Position numbers and translations under genes: made by a program
DNA from: a virus
Virus record (IMG/VR): IMGVR_UViG_3300035101_000063
Length of the DNA stretch: 64,000 nucleotides
Strand: one strand, 5' to 3'
Part shown: positions 880 to 18,448 of the stretch, one piece after another
How positions within the stretch are numbered: the first letter of the stretch is position 1
Layout of the letters: each line of letters opens with the position of its first letter
The notes under the pieces: model-generated
The model's input: only the letters and a program-made list of their open reading frames with translations
Database searches by the model: none
Told to the model about the DNA's origin: nothing

Positions 880-891
880 GTTTTTTTACTT

Positions 892-907
892 GCGAACTCG
901 AGTTCGC
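892..907. repeat. palindrome GCGAACTCGAGTTCGC (copy 1 of 10)
   Basis: Perfect 16-bp palindrome with a central XhoI-like CTCGAG; sits 13 bp upstream (minus sense) of the -35 at 872-877. Confidence 0.9.
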
Positions 908-917
908 TAATTTATTC

Positions 918-945
918 GTTTGTTTGTTTGTTTGTTTGTTTGTTT
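918..945. repeat. (GTTT)7 microsatellite abutting the distal CRISPR repeat
   Basis: Seven tandem gttt units; the last unit is the first four bases of the CRISPR repeat at 942. Confidence 0.85.
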
Positions 946-1413
946 CAATCCACGCCCCCTTTAAGGGGACGACACAGGCTCGCCAGACCACCGTCCCAAA
1001 TTCCCCAGGTCCGTTTCAATCCACGCCCCCTTTAAGGGGGCGACACAGCCCCGTGTACACATCCGGCGACGCGGAGTTGGATATGGTTTCAATCCACGCC
1101 CCCATGAAGGGGGCGAAACAGGCTCTTGCTTTTCCTCCTTTTTTCCCACCTCGTTTGCGTTTCAATCCACGCCCCCATGAAGGGGGCGAAACAGCCGGAT
1201 AATGGAATCCTTCTGTCCATATGCCCGAATCCGTTTCAATCCACGCCACCATGAAGGGGGCGAAACAGGGCTGTTGGAGGCCCGACAAGTAAAAAACAAA
1301 CTATGTTTCAATCCACGCCCCCATGAAGGGGGCGAAACAGTTCTCTTTTTTTGCCTGGTTTATCATAATTTTCTCCTGTTTCAATCCACGCCCCCATGAA
1401 GGGGGCGAAACAG
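942..1413 (-). CRISPR. CRISPR array 1: 7 repeats x 36 bp, 6 spacers (35-38 bp), type I-C-like repeat
   Basis: Repeats at 942, 1013, 1086, 1159, 1233, 1305, 1378 read GTTTCAATCCACGCCCCCATGAAGGGGGCGAAACAG. The reverse complement ...GCCCCCTTCATGGGGGCGTGGATTGAAAC matches the canonical I-C repeat end GTGGATTGAAA(C/T), so transcription is on the minus strand. The two leftmost repeats are variants (CCCCCTTTAAGGGG-CGACACAG). Confidence 0.93.
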
Positions 1414-1622
1414 AGACCATATAAAATAATATGTAATTACAATAACTTCCATCATTATTTTCGAGCGCCTATCATTTTTATATCTTATTATATATATCAC
1501 TGTTTTAATCAATACTCATTCATAAAACAACACATTACGTAACATTATGATATCATATAATAAAAACTAATTATATATTTTTCGAGCGGTCACAACTTTT
1601 TTACCACCATATAACCGCTCGA
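1414..1622 (-). promoter_or_regulatory. AT-rich leader-like region between the two arrays
   Basis: ~200 bp, very AT-rich, next to the most conserved repeat of array 1. Contains duplicated ttttcgagcg motifs (1461-1470, 1580-1589) and an inverted repeat cgagcggt...accgctcg (1583-1621). Confidence 0.45.
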
Positions 1623-1876
1623 TTTTCAATCCACACCCCCTTAAAGGGAACGACACAGAGCTCGGCGAATGCACGACCAAGACTGCTTAATGATGTTTCA
1701 ATCCACGCCCCCTTAAAGGGTGCGACACAGACGACTAAAAATATCAAGCATTCCTTTCCCATCATTCGTTTCAATCCACACCCCCTTAAAGAGGGCGACA
1801 CAGACTTTCTTATTTTTACTTCCCCCCTCTATTTCTTCACGTTTCAATCCACGCCCCCTTAAAGGGGGCGACATAA
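1623..1876 (-). CRISPR. CRISPR array 2: 4 repeats, 3 spacers, repeat variant CCCCCTTAAAGGGGG-CGACACAG
   Basis: Repeats at 1623 (degenerate), 1695, 1768, 1841 (3' end degenerate, ...gacat). Spacers 1659-1694, 1731-1767, 1804-1840. Same orientation as array 1; lies immediately 3' of the cas7 stop. Confidence 0.9.
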
Positions 1877-1913
1877 TATATTAAATTGTCAAAGAACACT
1901 ATCTCACTATCTA

Positions 1914-2798
1914 TTACAGCCCATCAATCTTTTCAGTCATCTCCACATTACTTGGCAAATCATCTCTATTTGCCACTATATCATAATCATTAAATGAACG
2001 TATTGGTTCATTAGGACTAACAATCCTATTTATTTTTATCAAATCAAACAATTTATGAGAAGGTGCATTACCTAACTTACTATTATGTTTAAAAACATAT
2101 AATTTCCTAGCAACCATCTTTCCTCTACCTGCAGAATGGTCATGCTCAAACATATTAATCATTGCTTCCCATAACAACTCAAGATCTTCTTCTGAAAAAC
2201 CAGTTTTCTCAGCAAAATAAGCAGATATATATCCTTCACATCTATACAACCCATAAGGTACAATGAATTTTTTACCCATCGTACGTTCTTTTTCTAGGTC
2301 CTCTTCCTTAGTAACAGCCATTCTAGTAATAGTTAACTCACCAGGAAGAACAGGATCAATACTTTTTGAAAAATTCATCTGAACTGGACCACGTACTTGT
2401 CCTGCATTAACAGCATTAGTCATTACAGCACCAAAAGTCCTAATATCAAAAAAATTATTACACATCCAGTTAGTTATCATAACTGATTCTTTTTCATCTT
2501 TTGGAAGCTTATTTGTTTCTGGCTTCAAATCATACTCTTTATAAGCCAATTCATGCTGTCTATTTAAAACAGCCTTCTCTTTAACATAAATCTTAAATCC
2601 TACTTCTTCTTCTTTTGTAACTTCGATATAATTTCTTATTTTTCTCTTTATACAAACATCAGAAACTAATCCATGAGACGTTTCCGAATCAAGCCTTGGC
2701 ATACCTCCAGCATCTGGATCTCCATTTGGATTTCCATTTTCAACGTCAAACAAAAAAACAAACTCATAACGATTTTTTATAACAGCCATTTTCATCAT
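1914..2798 (-). CDS. cas7c: Cas7c (Csd2) backbone subunit of type I-C Cascade
   Basis: 294 aa; N-terminal NRYEFVFLFDVENGNPNGDPDAGGMPRLD...GLVSDVCIKRKIRNY is the Csd2/DevR-family hallmark. Confidence 0.9.
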   Translation of the reverse strand: MMKMAVIKNRYEFVFLFDVENGNPNGDPDAGGMPRLDSETSHGLVSDVCIKRKIRNYIEVTKEEEVGFKIYVKEKAVLNRQHELAYKEYDLKPETNKLPKDEKESVMITNWMCNNFFDIRTFGAVMTNAVNAGQVRGPVQMNFSKSIDPVLPGELTITRMAVTKEEDLEKERTMGKKFIVPYGLYRCEGYISAYFAEKTGFSEEDLELLWEAMINMFEHDHSAGRGKMVARKLYVFKHNSKLGNAPSHKLFDLIKINRIVSPNEPIRSFNDYDIVANRDDLPSNVEMTEKIDGL

Positions 2799-4582
2799 CC
2801 TTTCATCTCACCAACAACTTCGTTGTCAATTCTATCTTCTTCGTTTTCATTATCAACTTTTTTTACAAAAAAATCATTCCATTGATGATAATATCCTATA
2901 ACAAATAAACCTTGATCTTCCAAACTCAAATAAGTTGGAAACTTATCAATATCATTATCATAAATAATAGAACCTAATTCTTTAGAATAATAAACCCAAA
3001 GTCCATATTTTTTATTCTTCAACTTCCTCTGATGATGAGTACTCAAGTGAAGTATTTTAGGAAATGCAACAGATGGCTTAACAGATGCAGATGTAAAATA
3101 ATTATCTTTTATTGTTGTTTTTATTTTTCTTTCTTCACTCTTTTCCTGTATTTTTTCCAATACAGCAAATAATCTTCCTAAATTATACGGCAAATCTTTT
3201 CTTTCTCTGTCTAAAGACACACTAACCTCCTTATTGAAATTTCTATTTAAAATTGCTTTTATTAAAGCACAATTATAACGATTTATCCTTTCATGTTCCT
3301 GCCTTTTATTATCTTTATTCTTCTTAGGAATAACCTTTAATCTATCTATCAATAAACTCATCAATGAAACAGGATATGGTATCCCATTTAAAATAGACAT
3401 CATAAATGGACCAACTATATTTGACGTTATATTTTTTTCGTCATACTGAAAAACTATTTCTGAAAAAAGTTTTTTAATACTTGGCATAAAATATTGTTCA
3501 TTTCTCCCTACAATATCTAAAAAATCAAAATGTTGAATTAATTTATTCGAGATACCTTCTATAGTATCTATATGCCAAAATTTAACAGACAAACGAGATA
3601 AATTTGGAACCAATCCTAAAATAAAAAATCTTTCATTACCATTAATATAATCTGGCATTCTCCTTTTTTTAACTGTATCCAAAAATTCTTCAGCTTCATC
3701 AACAAAATCAAAATCTTTTGATGGATTTAATAAAGTACCAAAAATATCATCCATCTTCGATTTTTTCTCAGACCAAAATACTATGGTCATATCGCCCAAT
3801 TCAATTTTATGTTTAGACTCTGAAATATAATTAAACGCAGTACTATATGCAAAAGCTTCATACTTTCCAATAGGAGCATTCAATCCTTGATCTTTGCTAT
3901 TATTTCCATAAGAACAAAATGAATCCATATTAAACGAAACAAAAGGAGCACTTTGCCCTTTCACTCTTATATTAGGATGAAGTCTAGCAATAGCAGTATT
4001 ATCTCCACTTATAATACAACGACCAAAACAATCACAATTACTTAAATATTTATCAGACCAATATCGTTGCAATTCATTTGATTCATGTAAATATTTCTCA
4101 TTACCCAACAATTTAACAACAACATTATTACATTTATCATCTAATACAATATCAAGATCTAAAAAAACATCAGGTTCCCATTTATCTAAGAAACGTATAA
4201 AAGCTTCTAAATCATCATTATTAATCATCTTAAAATGTTCACGATGATATTCTCTGAAAGCTTCAAATCTAGCCTTGCTTTTTTCAGTTATTTTCCAATC
4301 AGTATCATCACAAGCAATACCAAACATATATTCTAAATTCTCCCAACAAAAACCAGGACTTTTATTGATTCCATTAGTACGCTTAACCAAAGGAACCCTA
4401 ATAGATATTGGCCTTGGCTTTTTTTTGCTCTTGTCTTGTATATCTTCAAATCTAATAAAATTACCATAACTATCAATAACTAATGAATACTTTATTTTCT
4501 GGTTACCAAATCCTATTACAGGAATATCAGCACCAGATTCTTTTAAATATTCATAATAATTTACCAACTCTTCAAGAATCAT
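2795..4582 (-). CDS. cas8c: Cas8c (Csd1) large subunit of type I-C Cascade
   Basis: 595 aa; N-terminus MILEELVNYYEYL...RVPLVKRTNGINKSPGFCWENLEYMFGI is Cas8c-like; 4-bp overlaps with cas5 and cas7 indicate an operon. Confidence 0.85.
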   Translation of the reverse strand: MILEELVNYYEYLKESGADIPVIGFGNQKIKYSLVIDSYGNFIRFEDIQDKSKKKPRPISIRVPLVKRTNGINKSPGFCWENLEYMFGIACDDTDWKITEKSKARFEAFREYHREHFKMINNDDLEAFIRFLDKWEPDVFLDLDIVLDDKCNNVVVKLLGNEKYLHESNELQRYWSDKYLSNCDCFGRCIISGDNTAIARLHPNIRVKGQSAPFVSFNMDSFCSYGNNSKDQGLNAPIGKYEAFAYSTAFNYISESKHKIELGDMTIVFWSEKKSKMDDIFGTLLNPSKDFDFVDEAEEFLDTVKKRRMPDYINGNERFFILGLVPNLSRLSVKFWHIDTIEGISNKLIQHFDFLDIVGRNEQYFMPSIKKLFSEIVFQYDEKNITSNIVGPFMMSILNGIPYPVSLMSLLIDRLKVIPKKNKDNKRQEHERINRYNCALIKAILNRNFNKEVSVSLDRERKDLPYNLGRLFAVLEKIQEKSEERKIKTTIKDNYFTSASVKPSVAFPKILHLSTHHQRKLKNKKYGLWVYYSKELGSIIYDNDIDKFPTYLSLEDQGLFVIGYYHQWNDFFVKKVDNENEEDRIDNEVVGEMKG

Positions 4583-5250
4583 CTTTTAACCTCATCACTA
4601 TTCGGATGTGGAACACTTATGCATCCATTTTCTATTTTTGCACGAAAAAACATAGGCAAAATATTACATTTATCTTTTTTCTTCTTTATATCAAAACACA
4701 TATCATATAACATCCAACCAAGATCGCGTGTTTCATTTATAGCAACTGGCATCTTATTAGAAATGGGCTCAAAAAAAGCCGAGAATTCTCTACAACCCAA
4801 ATATGGCTGATTAAAACATTGACCATTTTCAATCCTTCGATTAAAAATACCAAAATGCTTTCCTTTGTTTTTTCCATCGTTTTCAACAGCCTCAAAATGA
4901 GCATCAATAACATAGCTTACATCTCGTAAAACCATAGAATTACGTTGTGTTCTATCAGATTCTATAAACAAAGATAATGGCCTTGAAATATTATTCATAG
5001 TAGATGTGATATTTTTTTTATAAATTGGAGAAGACACTTCATTTCTCCGAATATTACAAAAACGAATTGGATTCAAAACATAAATCTTATCAATTATCCA
5101 TCGAATAGATTTCTTCCAATAAATAGCCTCCAAAATTCCACGTGCAGCTGATGGTGTAATCACATCATAACTAACACGCTCAGCTTTCATTTCCGGCCTT
5201 GTAAAACACGCCAATTCACCCCAAACATGAACTTTTACTCCATAATCCAT
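4579..5250 (-). CDS. cas5c: Cas5c (Cas5d) subunit and pre-crRNA endoribonuclease of type I-C
   Basis: 223 aa; VHVWGELACFTRPEMKAERVSYDVITPSAARGILEAIYWKK matches the Cas5d N-terminal signature. Confidence 0.9.
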   Translation of the reverse strand: MDYGVKVHVWGELACFTRPEMKAERVSYDVITPSAARGILEAIYWKKSIRWIIDKIYVLNPIRFCNIRRNEVSSPIYKKNITSTMNNISRPLSLFIESDRTQRNSMVLRDVSYVIDAHFEAVENDGKNKGKHFGIFNRRIENGQCFNQPYLGCREFSAFFEPISNKMPVAINETRDLGWMLYDMCFDIKKKKDKCNILPMFFRAKIENGCISVPHPNSDEVKR

Positions 5251-5317
5251 AGTTTTCCCTTATATTTTTCAATATCTTATATCACATATTCTGCCAGCAC
5301 CATACTGACAATCTATC

Positions 5318-5350
5318 AAGACATTAATCAATTAATCATGTTTTGTCAAC
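5318..5350 (-). promoter_or_regulatory. promoter of the cas5-cas8-cas7 operon (GTTGACAAAA -35, TAATGT-like -10)
   Basis: tttgtcaac at 5342-5350 (minus GTTGACAAA); tandem 8-bp direct repeat attaatca x2 at 5323-5338 between -35 and -10 (possible operator); ~60-nt leader to the cas5 ATG at 5250. Confidence 0.55.
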
Positions 5351-5356
5351 ATTTTT

Positions 5357-5668
5357 CTACATTATCATTCCACACATATAAACTCTATCAATACGATGTT
5401 CACTAGCATCAAAAAAGGGTCCTTTCTTCCCTGAATATTTTACTTCATCTTTCAACCATTTACCGTTAGTCTCCTTATCTGGATCTTCACAATATATGTC
5501 TTCAGAAACAAAATCCAAAATCTCTGATACCGCTTCAGAATCCGAATCTGTATTTATATACTTACCATTTGCTTTATCTAGGATATCAAGATCTTCATCA
5601 GATACATTCTGAATAAAATATGCTTTCATATCTTCAGGAACCATCTCAAAAACTAAAAAAACATTCAT
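5357..5668 (-). CDS. hypothetical acidic protein upstream of the cas operon
   Basis: 103-aa ORF, RBS ggagataaaag, own promoter. Confidence 0.5.
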   Translation of the reverse strand: MNVFLVFEMVPEDMKAYFIQNVSDEDLDILDKANGKYINTDSDSEAVSEILDFVSEDIYCEDPDKETNGKWLKDEVKYSGKKGPFFDASEHRIDRVYMCGMIM

Positions 5669-6273: not shown

Positions 6274-6310
6274 ATTTTCAACACTTTATCAACTTTGTAT
6301 GGTCCAATAT

Positions 6311-6559
6311 CTATTCATCACTCAAATATCTATCCGTATCTTCAACAACCTTTAAAATAGTCCTATCTCTATATAATATAATCTTTCTAATTAACCTCCA
6401 AATCAATTCAATTCCAATTACAGCAATCGAAAATAAAAACAATAATCCATCTATTGATTCATCAAAATTGAATTCAAAAAGTTCTGCCCCACTTATTATA
6501 AACAACAACGCAAAAAATCTTAAATCAATTTTCCCTATATCTTTTTTTCGTATTGACAT
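6311..6559 (-). CDS. small hydrophobic (membrane) protein
   Basis: 82 aa with two hydrophobic stretches. Confidence 0.4.
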   Translation of the reverse strand: MSIRKKDIGKIDLRFFALLFIISGAELFEFNFDESIDGLLFLFSIAVIGIELIWRLIRKIILYRDRTILKVVEDTDRYLSDE

Positions 6560-6570
6560 TTTTCACCATA

Positions 6571-6897
6571 TTAATTGCATCTTTTAACCATACTAATTGC
6601 ATCTTTCATCTTCTTCACTTTTTTTGTAAGCCACCCAGTACCAGCACACCATTCGCAATCAACTGGGTCATCACATCCACATGCCACCACTTCGGCTTTA
6701 CATGGTCCAACAACAAACTCAGAACCTGGTTTACAAAACATATCTATTCCAGATTCGTTATAAAGTCCCCAATTTATTTGAACCAATTGCATCGCTCTTC
6801 CGAAACCAATAGTCTTCAAAGAAGACACTAATACTTTTTCAGAAGTTGTTTTTGGACCCAAAATATCATTAGCCTTATCATAATCATCAATCAACAT
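6571..6897 (-). CDS. hypothetical protein with a DnaJ-type CxxCxGxG zinc-finger motif
   Basis: 108 aa; CEWCAGTGW plus further Cys pairs. Confidence 0.45.
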   Translation of the reverse strand: MLIDDYDKANDILGPKTTSEKVLVSSLKTIGFGRAMQLVQINWGLYNESGIDMFCKPGSEFVVGPCKAEVVACGCDDPVDCEWCAGTGWLTKKVKKMKDAISMVKRCN

Positions 6898-10053: not shown

Positions 10054-10566
10054 TTATATCTTGGTTCCTTCGAGGTTGGCCCCTTCGAAGCCAGCCCATT
10101 TGAACTTGACCTCTTTAAGGTTGGCACTTTCAAGATTGGCCCCTTTAAGGTTGGCACTTTCAAGATTGGCACTTTCAAGATTGGCATCTTTGAGATTGAC
10201 CCCTTCAAGGTAAGCCCATTTGAGGTTGGCATCTTTGAGATTGGCCCCTTCAAGATTGGCATCTTTAAGGTAGGCCCATTCTAGATTGGCATCTTCGAGG
10301 TCAACCCCTTTTAGGTCAACCCCTTCGAGGCCAACCCCTTTTAGGTTGACCCCTTTAAGGTTGGCACTTTCAAGATTGGCACTTTCAAGATTGGCACTTT
10401 CAAGATTGGCACTTTCAAGATTGGCCCCTTTGAGATTGGCCCCTTTGAGGTTAGCTTCTTCGAGGTCAACCCCTTCGAGGTCAGCCCCTTTTAGGTTGGC
10501 TCCTTCGAAGTTGACCCCTTTGAGGATGGCTCCCCGCAAATTTCTTCCACTTAAATCAATTTTCAT
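10054..10566 (-). CDS. pentapeptide-repeat protein, paralog 1
   Basis: 170 aa; MKIDLSGRNLRGA... then continuous A(N/D)L(K/E)G pentapeptide repeats. Confidence 0.8.
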   Translation of the reverse strand: MKIDLSGRNLRGAILKGVNFEGANLKGADLEGVDLEEANLKGANLKGANLESANLESANLESANLESANLKGVNLKGVGLEGVDLKGVDLEDANLEWAYLKDANLEGANLKDANLKWAYLEGVNLKDANLESANLESANLKGANLESANLKEVKFKWAGFEGANLEGTKI

Positions 10567-11194
10567 TTTTTATCCCTTCGAGGTTGGCCCCTTCTAGATC
10601 GACCTCTTCTAGATCGACATCTTTAAGATTGGCTCCTTTAAGATTGGCTCCTTTGAGGTAGGCCCCTTTAATTTTGGCCCCTTCGAGGTTGGCTCCTTCT
10701 AGATTGGCTCCTTCTAGATTGACTCCTTCAAGGTTGGCACATTTAAGGATGGCCCCTTCTAGATTGGCCCTTTTTAGGTCTGCCATTTCTAAATTGGCCC
10801 TTTTGAGGTCTGCCATTTCAAGGTCTGCCCCTTCAAGGTTGGCCCCTGTAAAGTCTGACCCTTTAAAATTGGCATATCTTAGGTTGGCATCTTCGATGTT
10901 GGCCATTTTGAGGTTGACCCTTTCGAGATTGGCACCTCTTAGGTCTGCCCCTTTGAGGTCAGTACCTTCAAGGTTAGCACCTTCAAGATTGGCCCCTGTA
11001 AAGTCTGCCTTTTCAAGGTCTGCCCCTTCAAGATTGGCACATCTTAGGTATGTCCATTCGAGTTTGGCCCCTTTTAGGTTGGCTCCTTCGAGGTTAGCTT
11101 CTTCAAGGTTGGTCCTTTCTAGCTTAGCACCTCGCAAATCAATTCCTTCGAAGTTGGCTCCCCGCAAATTTCTTCCACTTAAATCAATTTTCAT
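10556..11194 (-). CDS. pentapeptide-repeat protein, paralog 2
   Basis: 212 aa; same N-terminus MKIDLSGRNLRGA; C-terminus ...EGIKNEN; 11-nt overlap with paralog 1. Confidence 0.8.
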   Translation of the reverse strand: MKIDLSGRNLRGANFEGIDLRGAKLERTNLEEANLEGANLKGAKLEWTYLRCANLEGADLEKADFTGANLEGANLEGTDLKGADLRGANLERVNLKMANIEDANLRYANFKGSDFTGANLEGADLEMADLKRANLEMADLKRANLEGAILKCANLEGVNLEGANLEGANLEGAKIKGAYLKGANLKGANLKDVDLEEVDLEGANLEGIKNEN

Positions 11195-11747
11195 TTTTTA
11201 TCCCTTCGAGGTTGGACCCTTTGAGATAGGCCCCTTCTAAATTTATCCCTCTCAAATCTGTCTTTTCCAGCTTGGCCCCTTCTAGGTAAGCCCCTTTAAA
11301 GTTGACTCCTTCCAAGTAAGCCCTTTTAAAATTGGCCCCTTTGAGGTTGGCTCCTTTGAAATTGGCCAAGTAGAGGTTGGCACATTCAAAATTGGCCCCT
11401 TCAAGGTTAGCATCTTTAAGGTCTGCCCCTTCAAAGTTGACCAATTTTAGGTTGGCTTCTTTGAGTTTGGCACCTTCTAGGTTGGCCCATTTAAGGATGG
11501 CCCCCTCAAGATTGGCCCCTTTTAGGTTGGCTTCTTTGAACTTAACCCCTTCGAGGTCAGCCCCTTCGAGGAAAGCCCCTTTTAGATTGGCCCCTTCAAG
11601 GTTGGCTTTTTTTAGATTGGCTCCTTTTAGGTAGGCATCTTTGAGGTTGGCCCCTTCAAGGTCAGCCCCTTTTAGGTAGGCACCTTCGAGGTCAGCCCCT
11701 TCCAAAATGGCTCCTCGCAAATTTCTTCCACTTAAATCAATTTTCAT
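11184..11747 (-). CDS. pentapeptide-repeat protein, paralog 3
   Basis: 187 aa; MKIDLSGRNLRGA ... EGIKNEN. Confidence 0.8.
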   Translation of the reverse strand: MKIDLSGRNLRGAILEGADLEGAYLKGADLEGANLKDAYLKGANLKKANLEGANLKGAFLEGADLEGVKFKEANLKGANLEGAILKWANLEGAKLKEANLKLVNFEGADLKDANLEGANFECANLYLANFKGANLKGANFKRAYLEGVNFKGAYLEGAKLEKTDLRGINLEGAYLKGSNLEGIKNEN

Positions 11748-12275
11748 TTATCTCTTAGCTCCTTCTAAGTTAGCTCCTTCTAAGTTGGCTCCTTTGAAAT
11801 TGGCTCCTTCTAGATTGGCCCCTTCGAGGTTAGCCCATTTAAAATTGGCTCCTTCGAGATTGGACCCTTCAATATTGGCCCATTTTAGGTCTGCCCTTTC
11901 GAGGATGGCCCCTTCGAGATTAGCCCCTTTGAGGATGGCCCCTTCGAGGATGGCCTCTTTGAGGTTAGCCCCTTTGAGATTTACCTCTTTGAGGTTAGCC
12001 CCTTCGAGGTTGGCCCTTTCGAGATTGGCCCCTTCGAGGTTAGTTCCTTCGAGGTTTGCCCTTTCAAGGTTGGCTCCTTTTAGGTTTGCCCTTTCAAGGT
12101 CTGCACCTTTGAGGTTAGCACATCTTAAACCTGTCCATTCAAGGTTGGACCCTTCGAGGTTAGTTCCTTCGAAGTTAGCTTCTTCAAGGTTGGTCCTTTC
12201 GAGGTCTGCCCCTCGCAAATCAATCCCTTTCAAAATAGCTCCTCGCAAATTTCTTTCACTTAAATCGATTTTCAT
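11748..12275 (-). CDS. pentapeptide-repeat protein, paralog 4
   Basis: 175 aa; MKIDLSERNLRGA...; its TAA stop overlaps the next ATG (taaATG). Confidence 0.8.
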   Translation of the reverse strand: MKIDLSERNLRGAILKGIDLRGADLERTNLEEANFEGTNLEGSNLEWTGLRCANLKGADLERANLKGANLERANLEGTNLEGANLERANLEGANLKEVNLKGANLKEAILEGAILKGANLEGAILERADLKWANIEGSNLEGANFKWANLEGANLEGANFKGANLEGANLEGAKR

Positions 12276-12721: not shown

Positions 12722-14929
12722 TCAATTCCAAATTCCATCAAACTTACCCACAAGTTGAGTCTTTCGATATCTCACAAGAATTCTTTCCAGCACTCTATAA
12801 ATATCATCTTCAGCCGTTTCAATATCTATAGAATTCATCCAATGCCCAATACAAGCATCAGGCTTATTGAATCCCATTCCATCCTTCAGAAAAGCCCCAT
12901 CACAAACACTACACAGATGGCCTAGAGCGCCCCTCAGTAGGCTCTTCCTTTCCTCGGTTAGTTCAGGTTCTGGCACATGAGAAACCCGCTCAGATTCCCG
13001 CTCAGCCACTCTCCTGATTTTCTGAGAGTAATACTCTCGATTGGCTTCATACTCAGCTTTGCGAATCCTTTCCGAGAGCTCTTCATCACTCTCCTCTTTG
13101 AGATCTACAAAATCAGACTTTTTACTAGAAACTTTTTGGCCACCCTTGAAAACATAATCATTATCAAGAGCCATATAGGCAAGTTTGACTTTGTACTCTA
13201 TAATATTTTGAATGTGAATATCAAGAGGATGAGAAGAAACCAGCCTTTTGATAGTCACATTGTTACTCTTCTGACCTATCCTGCAAATTCTGTCCTCTGC
13301 CTGAATATTCCAAGAGGGTGTCCAGTCAAGATCAACAAAAATCGCATTAGAAGCCCTTGTCAAAGTAAGACCAACACCCCCAGCCTTGATTGTCAGACCA
13401 ACACCTTTCAATTCGCCACATTGAAACCTCCTTACGACATTCTGTCTATCCTCTGCAGACGTATCACCGGTTATTACGTCCCATCCATCACGACTAGCCA
13501 ACTCATCTATAGGGGATCTATGAGCAGAAAAAACAACGACTGGCGTATCAGTTTCCTCATGCTCTTCAATTAAATTCAACATAGCAGGAATTTTAGCTTT
13601 AGCCAACAAAGCCCTTACTCGAGAAAAAGCATTAAAATCAGGGATTGTATCAAGGTCCAACATTGAAAAATCATCTGCATCAAAATTGATTCCTTGAGCA
13701 TCGGCAATTTCTTGAGCAAGTTCTTTCAATTCCTTATTGAGAGACCTACTAGAACAATCAACCTCAATCCTCTGATAAGTCTTAGGAGGAAGGTCTTTGA
13801 GAACGTCTTTTTTGAGTCTACGAATCATAACTCTCTTCATTCTCTCAACAACTTCCTGAGTGGGAAGACCAAACTCATACCCACCGTACTTACTACATGA
13901 ACCATTGAAAAGATTAACAAACTTGTTAAATCCACCCAAAGGATACATTCCAAACGCACACAAAACACCCCACAAATCAAATGGTCGATTCATCAACGGA
14001 GTTCCAGTCAAAACCCAAACCTTGGCAACATTTTTTGATAATTGTGTAACCTTTTGTGTCCTTTTAGCTTTGTAATTTTTTGCAAGATGACCTTCATCAA
14101 AAATAACAATTGTCTCGTTCAAACCAGAACGTTTGTCTGATGGAATATCAGCAACCAGAATCGGGTCACCCTTCTTATTTATTTTCCCACTATCAATTGT
14201 GGGCATCAACCATTTGGGCAGAATATCATAATTGACAATAACTATCTCACCCTCGTTAGGGACAATATTATCGTCTTTTTTACCCTTGACTATCCTAATA
14301 GAATAATCTGGTCTCCAAAGTTGAATCTCATCTCTCCAGTTGTATTTAACAGCAGAAGGGCAAGTAACTAAAACTCTTGATTTCTCAGGAATGGCAACAA
14401 GAGCCTGAACGGTTTTCCCGAGTCCCATATCATCAGCCATCAACGCATGATTATGAAGAGCAAGAAATCTAACTCCATCACGCTGAAAATCATAAAGAGG
14501 ACTTCCGTCAACCCTGACACGTTCAGCTCGTTTTTCAGCTTCTTGAGAGGCTACGGTACCGATTGAAGCACGCTTCCTTAGACTATCAGGAACATCGAGT
14601 TTTAGTTGGTCAGCAATCTCGATGACTCTATCCAAGTCCTCAGTCTTGACACTCACTGTCCAGTGCTTTTCGTCTGGATTCCATCGAGCCCCAGGCATAG
14701 AACGCAACAGAGTAATAGCATTTTTGTCATACCCCATGATGACCTTGCCATCCTCGGTCAATTTACGGACATTATCTCTATTCTGGTCTACGCCAAGTTT
14801 TCGATGACAAGCTGTTGATTTGCAAACTGTATGCCAAGTACCATTTTCAACGAAAGCAAAACCGTCACCCACGCCAACTTGCTCTCCACAACACTCACAA
14901 CGTTTCGAAAATTTGTTTTTTATAACCAT
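12722..14929 (-). CDS. SNF2-family (DEAD/H-like) helicase with N-terminal zinc ribbon
   Basis: 735 aa; CECCGEQ...CKSTACH Zn ribbon; ALMADDMGLGKTVQALV (motif I), FDEGHLAKN (DEGH box), C-terminal helicase lobe; G+C visibly higher than flanking phage DNA. Confidence 0.85.
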   Translation of the reverse strand: MVIKNKFSKRCECCGEQVGVGDGFAFVENGTWHTVCKSTACHRKLGVDQNRDNVRKLTEDGKVIMGYDKNAITLLRSMPGARWNPDEKHWTVSVKTEDLDRVIEIADQLKLDVPDSLRKRASIGTVASQEAEKRAERVRVDGSPLYDFQRDGVRFLALHNHALMADDMGLGKTVQALVAIPEKSRVLVTCPSAVKYNWRDEIQLWRPDYSIRIVKGKKDDNIVPNEGEIVIVNYDILPKWLMPTIDSGKINKKGDPILVADIPSDKRSGLNETIVIFDEGHLAKNYKAKRTQKVTQLSKNVAKVWVLTGTPLMNRPFDLWGVLCAFGMYPLGGFNKFVNLFNGSCSKYGGYEFGLPTQEVVERMKRVMIRRLKKDVLKDLPPKTYQRIEVDCSSRSLNKELKELAQEIADAQGINFDADDFSMLDLDTIPDFNAFSRVRALLAKAKIPAMLNLIEEHEETDTPVVVFSAHRSPIDELASRDGWDVITGDTSAEDRQNVVRRFQCGELKGVGLTIKAGGVGLTLTRASNAIFVDLDWTPSWNIQAEDRICRIGQKSNNVTIKRLVSSHPLDIHIQNIIEYKVKLAYMALDNDYVFKGGQKVSSKKSDFVDLKEESDEELSERIRKAEYEANREYYSQKIRRVAERESERVSHVPEPELTEERKSLLRGALGHLCSVCDGAFLKDGMGFNKPDACIGHWMNSIDIETAEDDIYRVLERILVRYRKTQLVGKFDGIWN

Positions 14930-16319: not shown

Positions 16320-16676
16320 CTATCCATTCAATCGCGCAGCATGGGCTTCCGCGTCTTTGGGGTTTTTGAATACCCCGTTACAATTTCGCGCCCAACTCAA
16401 ATCATCATCCAGATCGACAGCGGCTACAGCCCAATGTCGAGGCGCATCCATATAAACTAGAAATTCCGTTGGCTTGACATAGATAAAGATGAGACTGGGG
16501 TCTTCGCTGGCGATTTCCTCAGCATCTGCTACTGAGATGTCATAACGCGCGTCTTCTATGGGGTCTGCATATTTGCAGAGCACTGAATCTGAATTACTAC
16601 GCTTGAAATCAATTGCCTCATACCCTATCAGGTTTTTCATCTTTCTTCTCCTTTCGCTCAACATCTTGTTGAGCAT
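16320..16676 (-). CDS. hypothetical protein (higher-GC island)
   Basis: 118-aa ORF preceded by the duplicated promoter/hairpin cassette. Confidence 0.5.
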   Translation of the reverse strand: MLNKMLSERRRKMKNLIGYEAIDFKRSNSDSVLCKYADPIEDARYDISVADAEEIASEDPSLIFIYVKPTEFLVYMDAPRHWAVAAVDLDDDLSWARNCNGVFKNPKDAEAHAARLNG

Positions 16677-16714
16677 CTATACTGATTTTAAGACATCAAA
16701 AATGCTTTGTCAAC
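16646..16714 (-). promoter_or_regulatory. second copy of the promoter + 5'UTR hairpin cassette (GCTCAACATCTTGTTGAGC at 16656-16674)
   Basis: Near-identical to 14931-14999: tttgtcaac at 16706-16714, taaaat -10, hairpin, then RBS aaggagaag and the ATG at 16676. Confidence 0.55.
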
Positions 16715-18038: not shown

Positions 18039-18448
18039 TCATCTCTGTACGGTACGGCTTGTTTAACAAGCCTTGATACAATAAATAGTACTCCTGGCAT
18101 GGGCTCAGGAAGCCCCTCTACGTTACCGTATGATGTTTCATAAATCAGCGGTGTCGCCGATTTACCATCATACCCATAGGCATCGTAATAGACGCCTATC
18201 TGATTGATTTTTTCTTGGCATCTTGCGATGCCTTCCGAAGGGTATTCTTCCACGACATGCGGATGATCCTGAGCATCAAGCCGTTCCCAATACGTTACCT
18301 TATGGGGGGTAAGATTGACAATACGGTGATGCGGTATAAGATTTGGATACGGATTCGCCTCCCCACAATGCGGACACTCTGGAAGATACGATGCATATCC
18401 TTCACTGTCATACCCGCAAGATGGGCATATTATTTTTTCTTCTTTCAT
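17966..18448 (-). CDS. zinc-ribbon protein
   Basis: 160 aa; CPSCGYDSEGYASYLPECPHCGE. Confidence 0.5.
   Translation of the reverse strand: MKEEKIICPSCGYDSEGYASYLPECPHCGEANPYPNLIPHHRIVNLTPHKVTYWERLDAQDHPHVVEEYPSEGIARCQEKINQIGVYYDAYGYDGKSATPLIYETSYGNVEGLPEPMPGVLFIVSRLVKQAVPYRDDCVVPCMVLRDTQGCVIGCMGFSL

What the first reader, a model, noticed from the sequence alone, without database searches (positions are those of the whole stretch)
978..1694. Several spacers are far more GC-rich than the phage itself
The spacers at 978-1012, 1049-1085 and 1659-1694 are visibly GC-rich against an AT-rich genome whose cas genes are also AT-rich. Others, such as 1341-1377 and 1804-1840, are AT-rich like the phage. 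The GC-rich spacers therefore probably derive from a different replicon, either the host chromosome or a high-GC plasmid or phage. With no Cas1/Cas2 on board they must have been captured by a host adaptation complex sharing the I-C repeat. Their targets would reveal what this element silences.
Basis: partly seen in the sequence, partly recalled or inferred. Interest (0 to 1): 0.65.

Follow-up and report, generated by a model that had tools for sequence, protein, structure and literature searches.

The report
Old GC-rich spacers in phage CRISPR
A soil phage carries a cut-down type I-C CRISPR system whose newest spacers match a rival phage, while its two oldest spacers are unusually GC-rich and come from a source I could not find; this is a well-documented but ordinary example of a known kind.

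Summary
Partly confirmed. Spacers 978-1012 (66% GC) and 1049-1085 (62%) are real outliers in a 35% GC myovirus. At most 0.03% of its 36-mers reach that GC. The third cited spacer (1659-1694) is only 50%.

There are two minus-strand type I-C arrays downstream of cas5c-cas8c-cas7. The window holds no cas1, cas2, cas4 or cas3.

Related contigs show that array B (1623-1876) never varies. Array A (942-1413) differs at its leader end between strains, one lineage carries 12 different spacers, and some strains lack the whole 4.5-kb cassette. The GC-rich pair are the two trailer-end, oldest spacers of one lineage.

Eight of 23 spacers, including the window's two newest, match a co-occurring 39% GC rival phage. 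They hit its replication initiator, terminase and baseplate hub, with TTC-like PAMs. Mapped spacers average 38% GC and unmapped ones 48%.

I found no target for the GC-rich pair in the window, its flanks, the rival phage, GenBank phages, plasmids, IMG/VR, GTDB genomes or JGI contigs. A compositionally different source is likely, but it is unidentified. Capture by a host complex is plausible, not shown: no sequenced genome carries this 36-nt repeat.

This is a new member of a known kind.

The parts
978..1012 (-). Spacer S1, the trailer-end and oldest spacer of array A. 35 nt, 65.7% GC. Target unknown.
   Evidence: Present in every contig of this lineage that reaches the trailer. No match in any search.
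1049..1085 (-). Spacer S2, second oldest in array A. 37 nt, 62.2% GC. Target unknown.
   Evidence: No match.
1122..1232 (-). Spacers S3 (1122-1158, 48.6% GC) and S4 (1195-1232, 50% GC) with the repeat between them. Both unmapped.
1269..1304 (-). Spacer S5, 44% GC. It matches a terminator hairpin just upstream of the rival phage's replication-initiator gene.
   Evidence: 22/22 plus the other arm of the hairpin, with an indel and a flipped loop; 26/36 in the variant L090.
1341..1377 (-). Spacer S6, the newest spacer of the window's array A. 30% GC. It matches the RBS and start codon of the rival phage's replication-initiator gene, with a TTC PAM.
   Evidence: 32/37 at L090 10870-10906; phrog_270, replication initiation protein.
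942..1413 (-). Array A, the active array. Seven 36-nt repeats: five of the leader-proximal type CTGTTTCGCCCCCTTCATGGGGGCGTGGATTGAAAC, and two of the older type with a TTAAAG loop that flank S1 and S2.
   Evidence: Leader-end differences between strains.
1414..1622 (-). Leader of array A. 209 nt, 25% GC.
   Evidence: Identical in related contigs, with new spacers appearing next to it.
1623..1876 (-). Array B, next to the cas genes and invariant between strains. Four degenerate repeats and three spacers: 1659-1694 (50% GC), 1731-1767 (35%) and 1804-1840 (35%). All three unmapped.
1877..1897 (-). Promoter-like motif GTTCTTTGACAATTTAATATA, directly abutting the first repeat of array B. The same motif lies about 75 nt upstream of repeat 1 in bacterial I-C leaders.
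1914..2798 (-). cas7 (Csd2), type I-C.
   Evidence: 7.6e-114. 68% identical to the Cas7 of a bacterial I-C operon.
2795..4582 (-). cas8c (Csd1).
   Evidence: 3.2e-120.
4579..5250 (-). cas5c, the pre-crRNA endonuclease of type I-C.
   Evidence: 1.2e-57.
918..941 (-). (AAAC)6 trailer directly after the last repeat of array A. It is shared by lineages whose spacer content is entirely different.
889..5358 (-). The whole CRISPR-Cas cassette (cas5c-cas8c-cas7, both arrays, trailer, palindrome). It is a 4.47-kb presence/absence polymorphism among strains that are 98-99% identical in the flanks.

Best explanation
The GC-rich pair (978-1012 and 1049-1085) are the two oldest memories in the active array of a phage-borne type I-C cassette. 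The cassette is effector-only: Cas5c-Cas8c-Cas7, two arrays, no adaptation genes and no Cas3 in view.

Shown:
- The array differs between strains only at its leader end. Each added unit is a copy of the leader-proximal 36-nt repeat plus a 35-40-nt spacer.
- The newest spacers were taken from, and point at, core genes of a co-occurring rival phage of 39% GC. Their PAMs are TTC or one step from TTC.
- Mapped spacers have the rival's GC. Unmapped, mostly older spacers are GC-richer.

Inferred:
- S1 and S2 entered by the same polarised integration, earlier, from a different and GC-richer DNA. That could be another mobile element or the host chromosome. This DNA is not in any collection I could search.
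- Sitting side by side, they may come from one replicon, as primed type I adaptation would give.
- Integration is done by a type I-C Cas1-Cas2-Cas4 supplied in trans, by the host or a co-resident element. Any target degradation needs a Cas3 from elsewhere. Otherwise the complex only binds and blocks.
For: - Outlier GC: at most 0.03% of window 36-mers; z = 3.15 and 2.67 against the other 21 spacers.
- Not self.
- Polarity. The window reads leader-S6-S5-S4-S3-S2-S1. L003 reads leader-N1-N2-S5-S4-S3-S2-S1. The added repeats are all of the leader-proximal type, while S1 and S2 sit between an older repeat variant.
- Rival-phage protospacers for S5, S6, N1 and X1-X5, with 28-36 matching positions for the seven that align full length. 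They fall in the replication initiator, large terminase and baseplate hub.
- All 7 PAMs are within one substitution of TTC (p = 6e-6 given composition).
- Mapped spacers average 0.379 GC, equal to the rival's 0.388. Unmapped ones average 0.478 (Mann-Whitney p = 0.007).
- In 26 bacterial I-C arrays, spacer GC tracks genome GC (r = 0.82, mean offset -0.01). GC-rich spacers therefore normally indicate a GC-rich source.
- Only 0.8% of the rival phage's 36-mers reach 62% GC, giving P(2 or more of 23) = 0.014.
- No cas1, cas2, cas4 or cas3 in the window or in about 10 kb to its left.
- Precedents: huge-phage systems without adaptation genes (PMC7162821) and in-trans acquisition by type IV-A3 (10.1101/2023.06.23.546257).
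Against: - No protospacer was found for S1 or S2, so the source is inferred from composition alone.
- The outlier statistics are post hoc.
- AT-rich phages do contain GC-rich patches. L082 has 36-mers up to 78% GC.
- Only about 30 of about 38 kb of the rival clade, and 64 of at least 158 kb of this phage, could be read.
- Some array variants come from short-read assemblies that can collapse repeats (the two-spacer L005 array, and L055).
- A second lineage (L056) has a different trailer-end spacer, so S1 and S2 are not founder spacers of all cassettes. Their history (acquired versus recombined in) is open.
- No candidate host with this repeat was found.
Confidence: 0.5

Rival explanations
1. 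No separate replicon is needed. S1 and S2 were taken from locally GC-rich patches, such as Pro/Ala/Gly-rich coding repeats or hairpins, of an otherwise AT-rich rival phage like the one the newer spacers target.
For: The rival phage's 36-mers have mean 0.388 and sd 0.093. 1.45% reach 60% GC, with a maximum of 78% in a Pro-rich repeat inside the very replication gene that four spacers target. S5 itself comes from a GC-rich hairpin. More than half of the rival genome is unread.
Against: Only 0.78% of its 36-mers reach 62% GC, so P(2 or more of 23 spacers) = 0.014. The best ungapped match of S1 or S2 in about 30 kb of that clade is 18-22 of 35-37 positions, which is background. The unmapped spacers as a group are GC-richer than the mapped ones even without S1 and S2 (0.453 against 0.379, p = 0.015).
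Confidence: 0.2
2. S1 and S2 were not acquired in this phage. They arrived ready-made, either with the 4.5-kb cassette from its donor, or by recombination between repeats with another I-C array belonging to a host or a co-infecting element. On this reading they record that donor's enemies.
For: The cassette is a discrete indel among genomes 98-99% identical in the flanks, so it is mobile or recently gained or lost. S1 and S2 are flanked by an older repeat variant that differs at 3 positions from the repeat now at the leader, as a recombination junction would look. The same core repeat family is common in bacteria of 55-67% GC, whose spacers are 55-70% GC.
Against: The cas genes are 30% GC, so the cassette has not recently left a GC-rich genome. 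No array in 185,579 species genomes has the phage's loop variants or the CTGT-extended 36-nt unit. The L056 lineage has the same trailer and the old repeat type, yet 12 other spacers with none above 53% GC.
Confidence: 0.15
3. This is a specific sub-case of the best explanation. The GC-richer unmapped spacers, perhaps including the invariant array B, are taken from the host chromosome. They guide a Cas3-less Cascade to bind and silence host genes during infection.
For: No Cas3 in view. Array B is fixed across all strains despite degenerate repeats, as expected for guides under selection. Unmapped spacers average 0.45-0.48 GC, near the 0.49-0.50 of the bacteria with the closest Cas8c. Huge phages are reported to target host transcription and translation genes (PMC7162821).
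Against: The host is unknown and no bacterial match was found. Phage and host GC usually agree, which would predict a host near 35% GC. S1 and S2 would still be about 2 sd outliers for a 45-48% GC genome.
Confidence: 0.12

Closest known systems
CRISPR-Cas systems of huge phages that lack adaptation genes, including the type I-C variant without Cas1, Cas2 and Cas3 (Al-Shayeb et al. 2020, PMC7162821)
   Same: Phage-borne. Cas5d-type processing with no Cas6. No Cas1, Cas2 or Cas4, and no Cas3 next to the effector genes. Compact arrays (7 and 4 repeats here; the median reported is 6). [quoted passage not shown] No bacterial spacer targeting the CRISPR-bearing phage was found among the I-C arrays fetched.
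   Different: The published I-C variant has a helicase in place of Cas3 inside the locus, and a second CasPhi system. Here no helicase is adjacent: the nearest is an SNF2 protein 7.5 kb away, whose role was not examined. No second effector was seen. The published cases with host-like repeats could be linked to hosts. Here no genome shares the repeat.
Viral CRISPR mini-arrays used for competition between related viruses (reviewed in PMC11656645)
   Same: Spacers target a related, co-occurring virus. The function is exclusion of a competitor in co-infected cells.
   Different: Mini-arrays have 1-2 spacers, repeats identical to the host's, and rely entirely on host Cas proteins. This element brings its own Cascade genes and larger, growing arrays.
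Plasmid type IV-A3 systems that acquire spacers in trans with host type I-E Cas1-Cas2 (Benz et al., 10.1101/2023.06.23.546257)
   Same: A mobile-element system without an adaptation module whose arrays nevertheless vary. Used in conflicts between elements. May act by binding rather than cutting.
   Different: A different type (IV-A, with DinG), on plasmids. In-trans acquisition was shown experimentally there. Here it is inferred from array polarity and PAMs.
Vibrio phage ICP1 type I-F system (Seed et al. 2013, reference 26 of PMC7162821; my own knowledge for details)
   Same: A phage-encoded class 1 system with arrays that change in natural isolates.
   Different: ICP1 carries a complete system with Cas1 and Cas2-3, and targets a host defence island rather than another phage.
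Canonical bacterial type I-C loci, such as the operons on L007 and L008 (cas3-cas5-cas8c-cas7-cas4-cas1-cas2-array)
   Same: Same order for cas5c-cas8c-cas7. Cas7 is 68% identical. The repeat has the GTCGCCCCC hairpin and the TGGATTGAAAC handle. TTC-like PAM.
   Different: No cas3, cas4, cas1 or cas2. The repeat unit is 36 nt rather than 32 nt. Spacers are 35-40 nt (mean 37.0) rather than mean 34.1. There are two arrays, one with a truncated leader.

Membership tests
Type I-C CRISPR-Cas | Cas5c, Cas8c (Csd1) and Cas7 (Csd2) genes in that order, with no Cas6 | tested here: met
   NCBIfam equivalog and exception models, all far above cut-off. The Pfam scan of all 75 ORFs shows no other Cas family.
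Type I-C CRISPR-Cas | Cas3 helicase-nuclease for interference | tested here: not met
   No hit in the window by tblastn with two bacterial I-C Cas3 proteins or by Pfam or PADLOC. The rest of the phage genome is unseen.
Type I-C CRISPR-Cas | Cas1-Cas2-Cas4 adaptation module | tested here: not met
   for the window. The gene table for about 10 kb to the left of the window shows none.
Type I-C CRISPR-Cas | Repeat with a G+C-rich hairpin followed by the 11-nt handle ending ATTGAAAC | tested here: met
   Sub-threshold Rfam CRISPR-DR9 hits on the minus strand. The fold is -16.3 kcal/mol.
Type I-C CRISPR-Cas | 32-nt repeat with spacers of about 33-36 nt | tested here: not met
   The unit is 36 nt, with a conserved CTGT at the 5' end. 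Protospacer 3' flanks are not CTGT, so CTGT belongs to the repeat. Spacers are 35-40 nt with mean 37.0, against 34.1 in 655 bacterial spacers.
Type I-C CRISPR-Cas | 5'-TTC PAM upstream of the protospacer | tested here: inconclusive
   One of the 7 mapped protospacers has TTC. The other six have single-step variants (TTG twice, CTC twice, TTA, TCC). 7 of 7 within one mismatch gives p = 6e-6. The targets are imperfect variants, so escape mutation and a relaxed PAM cannot be told apart.
Phage-encoded CRISPR-Cas lacking adaptation (huge-phage class, PMC7162821) | Located on a phage genome | tested here: met
   Tail sheath, baseplate wedge, tape measure, T4-type tube and baseplate families. A tRNA cluster.
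Phage-encoded CRISPR-Cas lacking adaptation (huge-phage class, PMC7162821) | Spacers target other phages from the same samples | tested here: met
   8 of 23 spacers map to IMGVR_UViG_3300035136_000034 and its variant Ga0665431_0000107. N1 and its target come from the same sample.
Phage-encoded CRISPR-Cas lacking adaptation (huge-phage class, PMC7162821) | Repeat shared with a host CRISPR locus | tested here: not met
   The 42 genome loci with the core repeat all have the TTCACG loop, a 32-nt unit and a 65-68 nt period. The host may simply be unsequenced.
In-trans spacer acquisition (as shown for type IV-A3) | Polarised, leader-end gain of repeat-spacer units in an element without Cas1-Cas2 | tested here: met
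   The window and L003 share S5-S1 and differ next to the leader. The new repeats copy the leader-proximal variant. Caveat: these are metagenome assemblies.
In-trans spacer acquisition (as shown for type IV-A3) | A compatible adaptation module present in the same cell | not testable with these tools
   The host is unknown. The only indirect hint is three solitary I-C-like repeats in the phage's tRNA region.

The most novel reading that the evidence does not exclude
The GC-richer, unmapped spacers, including the strain-invariant array B, are host-directed guides. On this reading, a Cas3-less Cascade carrying an unusually long guide region (36-nt repeat; spacer plus CUGU is about 41 nt, one Cas7 step longer than canonical) binds host genes and silences them. 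The same machine is reloaded, through a borrowed adaptation complex, against rival phages. The solitary I-C repeats in the phage's tRNA cluster would then disarm the host's own type I-C system.
Probability: 0.1. Interest if true: 0.7.

Novelty: new member of a known kind. Interest (0 to 1): 0.4.

Why it matters
It gives a clean natural example of a phage using a borrowed-and-trimmed CRISPR system against another phage. The array history can be read across strains. The rival genome is in hand and carries PAM and seed changes that look like escape. Some strains have lost or never had the cassette.

The GC content of spacers turns out to be a usable tracer. Spacers that map have the rival's composition, and those that do not are GC-richer. 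That points to at least one further, unidentified target pool. Identifying it would show whether such phage systems are aimed only at competitors or also at the host.

None of this changes what is known in kind. The GC-rich pair itself remains unexplained.

Tried and rejected
- **Self-targeting.** blastn-short of all spacers against the window (array masked), against L003-L006 and L062-L066 (about 20 kb off-window) and against the alternative cassette. Only chance matches of 16 nt or fewer.
- **The 12.7-18.7 kb island as a source.** No match.
- **GenBank phages and PLSDB plasmids.** Word-11 blastn of concatenated spacers gave one marginal A-rich hit for S6 (E = 0.1) and nothing else.
- **Exact-seed scans.** I used the 5' 26-29 nt with every sixth base free. 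No hit for S1 in IMG/VR, GTDB genomes, or JGI metagenomes with a TC PAM prefix. No hit for S2 in IMG/VR or in metagenomes without a PAM. No hit for B3, N2 or S4 in IMG/VR. The S2 metagenome scan did not even find the phage's own array, so that collection lacks the source samples.
- **Host link through spacers.** 655 plus 177 spacers from 45 bacterial I-C arrays were compared with the window and all phage loci. Only chance partial matches.
- **rRNA or tRNA origin of the spacers.** Rfam at E up to 10 shows only CRISPR repeat models and chance-level hits (E about 1 or more) to unrelated small-RNA families.
- **Cas7 relatives in IMG/VR.** None. There is no close known phage.
- **Walking the genome.** Look-ups are allowed only for window proteins. 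The right end gave no new sequence. The attempt to reach the rest of the rival genome through its tape-measure protein failed. A second related large phage (L092/L093, 40 kb) holds no protospacer.
- **Codon-phase GC of S1 and S2.** Too short to interpret.

Full report
**What is in the window**

The window is 34.9% GC with nearly all genes on the minus strand. It is a contractile-tailed phage. It has a tail sheath, baseplate wedge, tape measure, and T4-type tube and baseplate proteins, plus tRNA genes at its left edge. It has no close relative among 50,697 deposited phages.

ORFs 4579-5250, 2795-4582 and 1914-2798 are Cas5c, Cas8c and Cas7 of type I-C, far above the curated cut-offs. Two arrays follow on the same strand.

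- **Array B** spans 1623-1876, with four degenerate repeats and three spacers.
- **A 209-nt, 25% GC leader** follows at 1414-1622.
- **Array A** spans 942-1413, with seven repeats and six spacers. It ends in an (AAAC)6 trailer.

The repeats carry the type I-C hairpin and the TGGATTGAAAC handle on the minus strand.

**The observation**

Spacers 978-1012 (S1) and 1049-1085 (S2) are 65.7% and 62.2% GC. No window 36-mer reaches the first value and 0.03% reach the second. Spacer 1659-1694 is 50% GC, a value that 6% of window 36-mers reach, so it is not remarkable.

The whole repertoire is also shifted. The nine window spacers average 0.468 GC. The 23 distinct spacers I recovered from the phage population average 0.443. 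Without S1 and S2 the mean is still 0.425, against 0.347 for the genome (p about 1e-5).

**Array history from related contigs**

The identical Cas8c and neighbouring proteins occur on contigs from several JGI and SRA samples. One of these samples is listed among the largest soil metagenomes in IMG.

Array B is the same everywhere. Array A is not.

| Source | Array A, leader to trailer |
|---|---|
| Window | leader-S6-S5-S4-S3-S2-S1 |
| L003 (JGI 3300035136) | leader-N1-N2-S5-S4-S3-S2-S1 |
| L005 | only S2-S1 (possibly an assembly collapse) |
| L056 (JGI 3300077075) | same trailer, 12 entirely different spacers (30-53% GC) |

Every added unit copies the repeat variant that sits at the leader. 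S1 and S2 lie between an older variant that differs at three positions. The array therefore grows at the leader end within the phage population, and the GC-rich pair are the two oldest spacers of one lineage.

Three further strains are 98-99% identical in the flanks but lack window 889-5358 altogether. The CRISPR-Cas cassette is thus an accessory module that is gained or lost.

**What the system targets**

The phage has a 14-nt palindrome, CGAACTCGAGTTCG, ten times in the window, mostly just upstream of genes. L003's newest spacer, N1, contains it.

A scan of IMG/VR for the 16-nt form of that palindrome retrieved IMGVR_UViG_3300035136_000034. This is a 38-kb phage contig of 37-39% GC from the same sample as L003. 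It shares only two short patches of 84-87% identity with the window. A variant of this phage (L090, JGI 3300077082) was reached through a shared small protein.

Eight of the 23 spacers map to this clade.

| Spacer | Match | Location |
|---|---|---|
| N1 | 36/38 and 33/38 | 3' end of the replication-initiator gene |
| X5 | 35/37 | an unannotated 318-aa ORF |
| X3 | 35/37 | baseplate hub |
| X4 | 34/39 | large terminase |
| X1 | 32/37 | inside the replication-initiator gene |
| S6 | 32/37 | RBS and start codon of the replication-initiator gene |
| X2 | 28/37 | inside the replication-initiator gene |
| S5 | 22/22 plus the other hairpin arm | terminator hairpin just upstream of that gene |

The window has no homologue of the replication-initiator gene.

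All seven scorable PAMs are TTC or one substitution from it (TTC, TTG twice, CTC twice, TTA, TCC). That gives p = 6e-6 given the sequence composition. It fits type I-C spacer selection followed by escape in the surviving rival genomes, but a relaxed PAM is not excluded.

The 3' flanks of the protospacers are not CTGT. The conserved CTGT therefore belongs to the repeat, which is really 36 nt.

**Back to the GC-rich spacers**

Mapped spacers average 0.379 GC, the same as the rival phage (0.388). The 15 unmapped ones average 0.478 (Mann-Whitney p = 0.007). Without S1 and S2 they still average 0.453 (p = 0.015).

In 26 bacterial I-C arrays with the related repeat, mean spacer GC follows genome GC (r = 0.82, offset -0.01 +/- 0.05). 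Only 1.2% of spacers lie 0.20 or more above their array's mean. In the rival clade, 0.78% of 36-mers reach 62% GC, which gives P(2 or more of 23) = 0.014.

Composition therefore argues for at least one further, GC-richer source, with S1 and S2 as its extreme or as a source of their own.

That source was not found. There was no match in any of the following:
- the window, its flanks, the rival clade (about 30 kb) or a second related large phage (40 kb);
- GenBank phages and PLSDB plasmids;
- exact-seed scans of IMG/VR, GTDB species genomes and JGI metagenome contigs.

These negatives are weak. The scans need an exact seed of 20-24 bases, and the metagenome collection lacks this phage's own samples.

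**How spacers get in**

No Cas1, Cas2, Cas4 or Cas3 is encoded in the window or in the 10 kb to its left. The Cas7 positive control scored 3e-142.

Polarised growth, duplication of the leader-proximal repeat, and TTC-like PAMs are what a type I-C Cas1-Cas2-Cas4 integrase would produce. Supply in trans is therefore the most economical reading. It has precedents in huge phages and in type IV-A3 plasmids.

It remains an inference for four reasons:
- At least 90 kb of the phage is unseen.
- None of 185,579 species genomes has the phage's loop variants or its 36-nt unit. All 42 loci found have the TTCACG loop, a 32-nt unit and a 65-68 nt period.
- The phage's spacers are about 3 nt longer than those of these bacterial arrays.
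- Recombination between arrays could also move spacers.

One indirect hint of a host type I-C system exists. Three solitary I-C-like repeats sit in the phage's tRNA cluster, and they are present even in strains without the cassette. Elements of this kind are known as RNA anti-CRISPRs (PMC10651486).

**Comparison with known systems, and verdict**

This is a phage-borne, adaptation-less, Cas3-less type I-C system used against a competing phage. It belongs to the class described for huge phages (PMC7162821) and relates to viral mini-arrays (PMC11656645). It meets the effector, repeat-handle and phage-targeting criteria. It fails the Cas3, adaptation-module and canonical repeat-length criteria for a complete type I-C locus.

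The inference of a foreign source is reasonable, but no target was found to confirm it. The claim that a host complex sharing the repeat must have captured them is not established.

My ranking of explanations for S1 and S2:
1. Old acquisitions from an unidentified, GC-richer replicon (about 0.5).
2. GC-rich patches of an AT-rich rival phage (0.2).
3. Inherited or recombined in with the cassette (0.15).
4. Host-directed silencing guides (about 0.1), a specific and more interesting sub-case of the first.

Noticed in passing
window 889-5358 (compared with L064, L065, L066): The whole cas5c-cas8c-cas7 plus arrays cassette is absent from three related contigs whose flanks are 98-99% identical. In its place are about 100-500 nt of unrelated sequence. 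The CRISPR system is a strain-variable accessory island.
   Followed up: partly
window about 6279-6322 (L064 3840-7135): The cassette-less strains carry an extra 3.3 kb here. It encodes a 962-aa protein with P22_AR_N/Bro-N domains and a 107-aa VVA0879-family protein. This may be an alternative accessory or defence module.
   Followed up: no
L063 about 12043-12078, 14203-14238 and 18349-18384 (off-window, left of window position 1): Three solitary type I-C-like repeat units (hairpin plus TGGATTGAAAC/T handle) lie among 13 tRNA genes on the array strand. One ends 4 nt before tRNA-Gln. The second and third are also present in cassette-less strains. They could be RNA anti-CRISPR decoys against a host I-C system, or Cas5c processing sites.
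   Followed up: partly
window 942-1876 (all repeats): Every repeat except the first repeat of array B (1841-1876, which reads TTAT there) has a conserved 4-nt 5' extension, CTGT, making a 36-nt unit. Protospacer flanks show that CTGT is not acquired with the spacer. Spacer plus CUGU is about 41 nt, one 6-nt Cas7 step longer than the canonical guide of about 35 nt. Bacterial leaders of the same repeat family often end in ACT just before GTCGCC.
   Followed up: partly
window 1623-1897: Array B is identical in all strains. Its repeats are degenerate and its leader is truncated: a promoter-like motif that sits about 75 nt upstream of repeat 1 in bacterial I-C leaders here abuts repeat 1. It looks like a frozen array that is transcribed but no longer acquires spacers.
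   Followed up: partly
window 894, 6110, 9835, 20739, 23824, 39286, 45409, 48665, 55288, 57401: The palindrome CGAACTCGAGTTCG occurs ten times, mostly just upstream of minus-strand genes. It also occurs in the rival phage, where spacer N1 covers a copy. It is probably a shared operator or terminator-like regulatory element.
   Followed up: partly
window 10054-11747: Three tandem paralogous ORFs (170, 212 and 187 aa, about 73% nt identity to each other) are pentapeptide-repeat proteins. They lie in a region of 46% GC with strong AT skew. Proteins of this family can mimic DNA, so an anti-restriction or anti-CRISPR role is conceivable.
   Followed up: no
window 12722-14929: A 735-aa SNF2-family helicase with DpdE- and ZorD-like matches lies 7.5 kb from cas5c. 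I did not examine whether it stands in for Cas3, as a helicase does in the published huge-phage I-C variant.
   Followed up: no
window 6622-6816 and 16487-16714 (compared with L082 5418-5612 and 315-535): These short patches are 84-87% identical to the rival phage. The second lies next to the rival's targeted replication gene. The two phages exchange small genes, which suggests a shared host.
   Followed up: partly
L001 2164-2195; L002 5-36: Two GC-rich IMG/VR viral contigs each carry a single, solitary copy of nearly the same I-C repeat. These are further candidate repeat decoys in unrelated phages.
   Followed up: no
L055 1-120: This contig joins the third repeat of array B directly to spacer N1 of array A, skipping spacer B3 and the 209-nt leader. 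It is either a real recombination between the arrays or an assembly collapse across repeats.
   Followed up: no
L018 and L038 (Spirochaetales MAG 128-326_metabat1_scaf2bin.014): This is the only AT-rich genome (flanks 32-36% GC) among the 42 loci with the core repeat. Its period is 67-68 nt, and it has one repeat with the phage's TTCATG loop. It is a weak lead to the host lineage, but none of its spacers matches either phage.
   Followed up: partly
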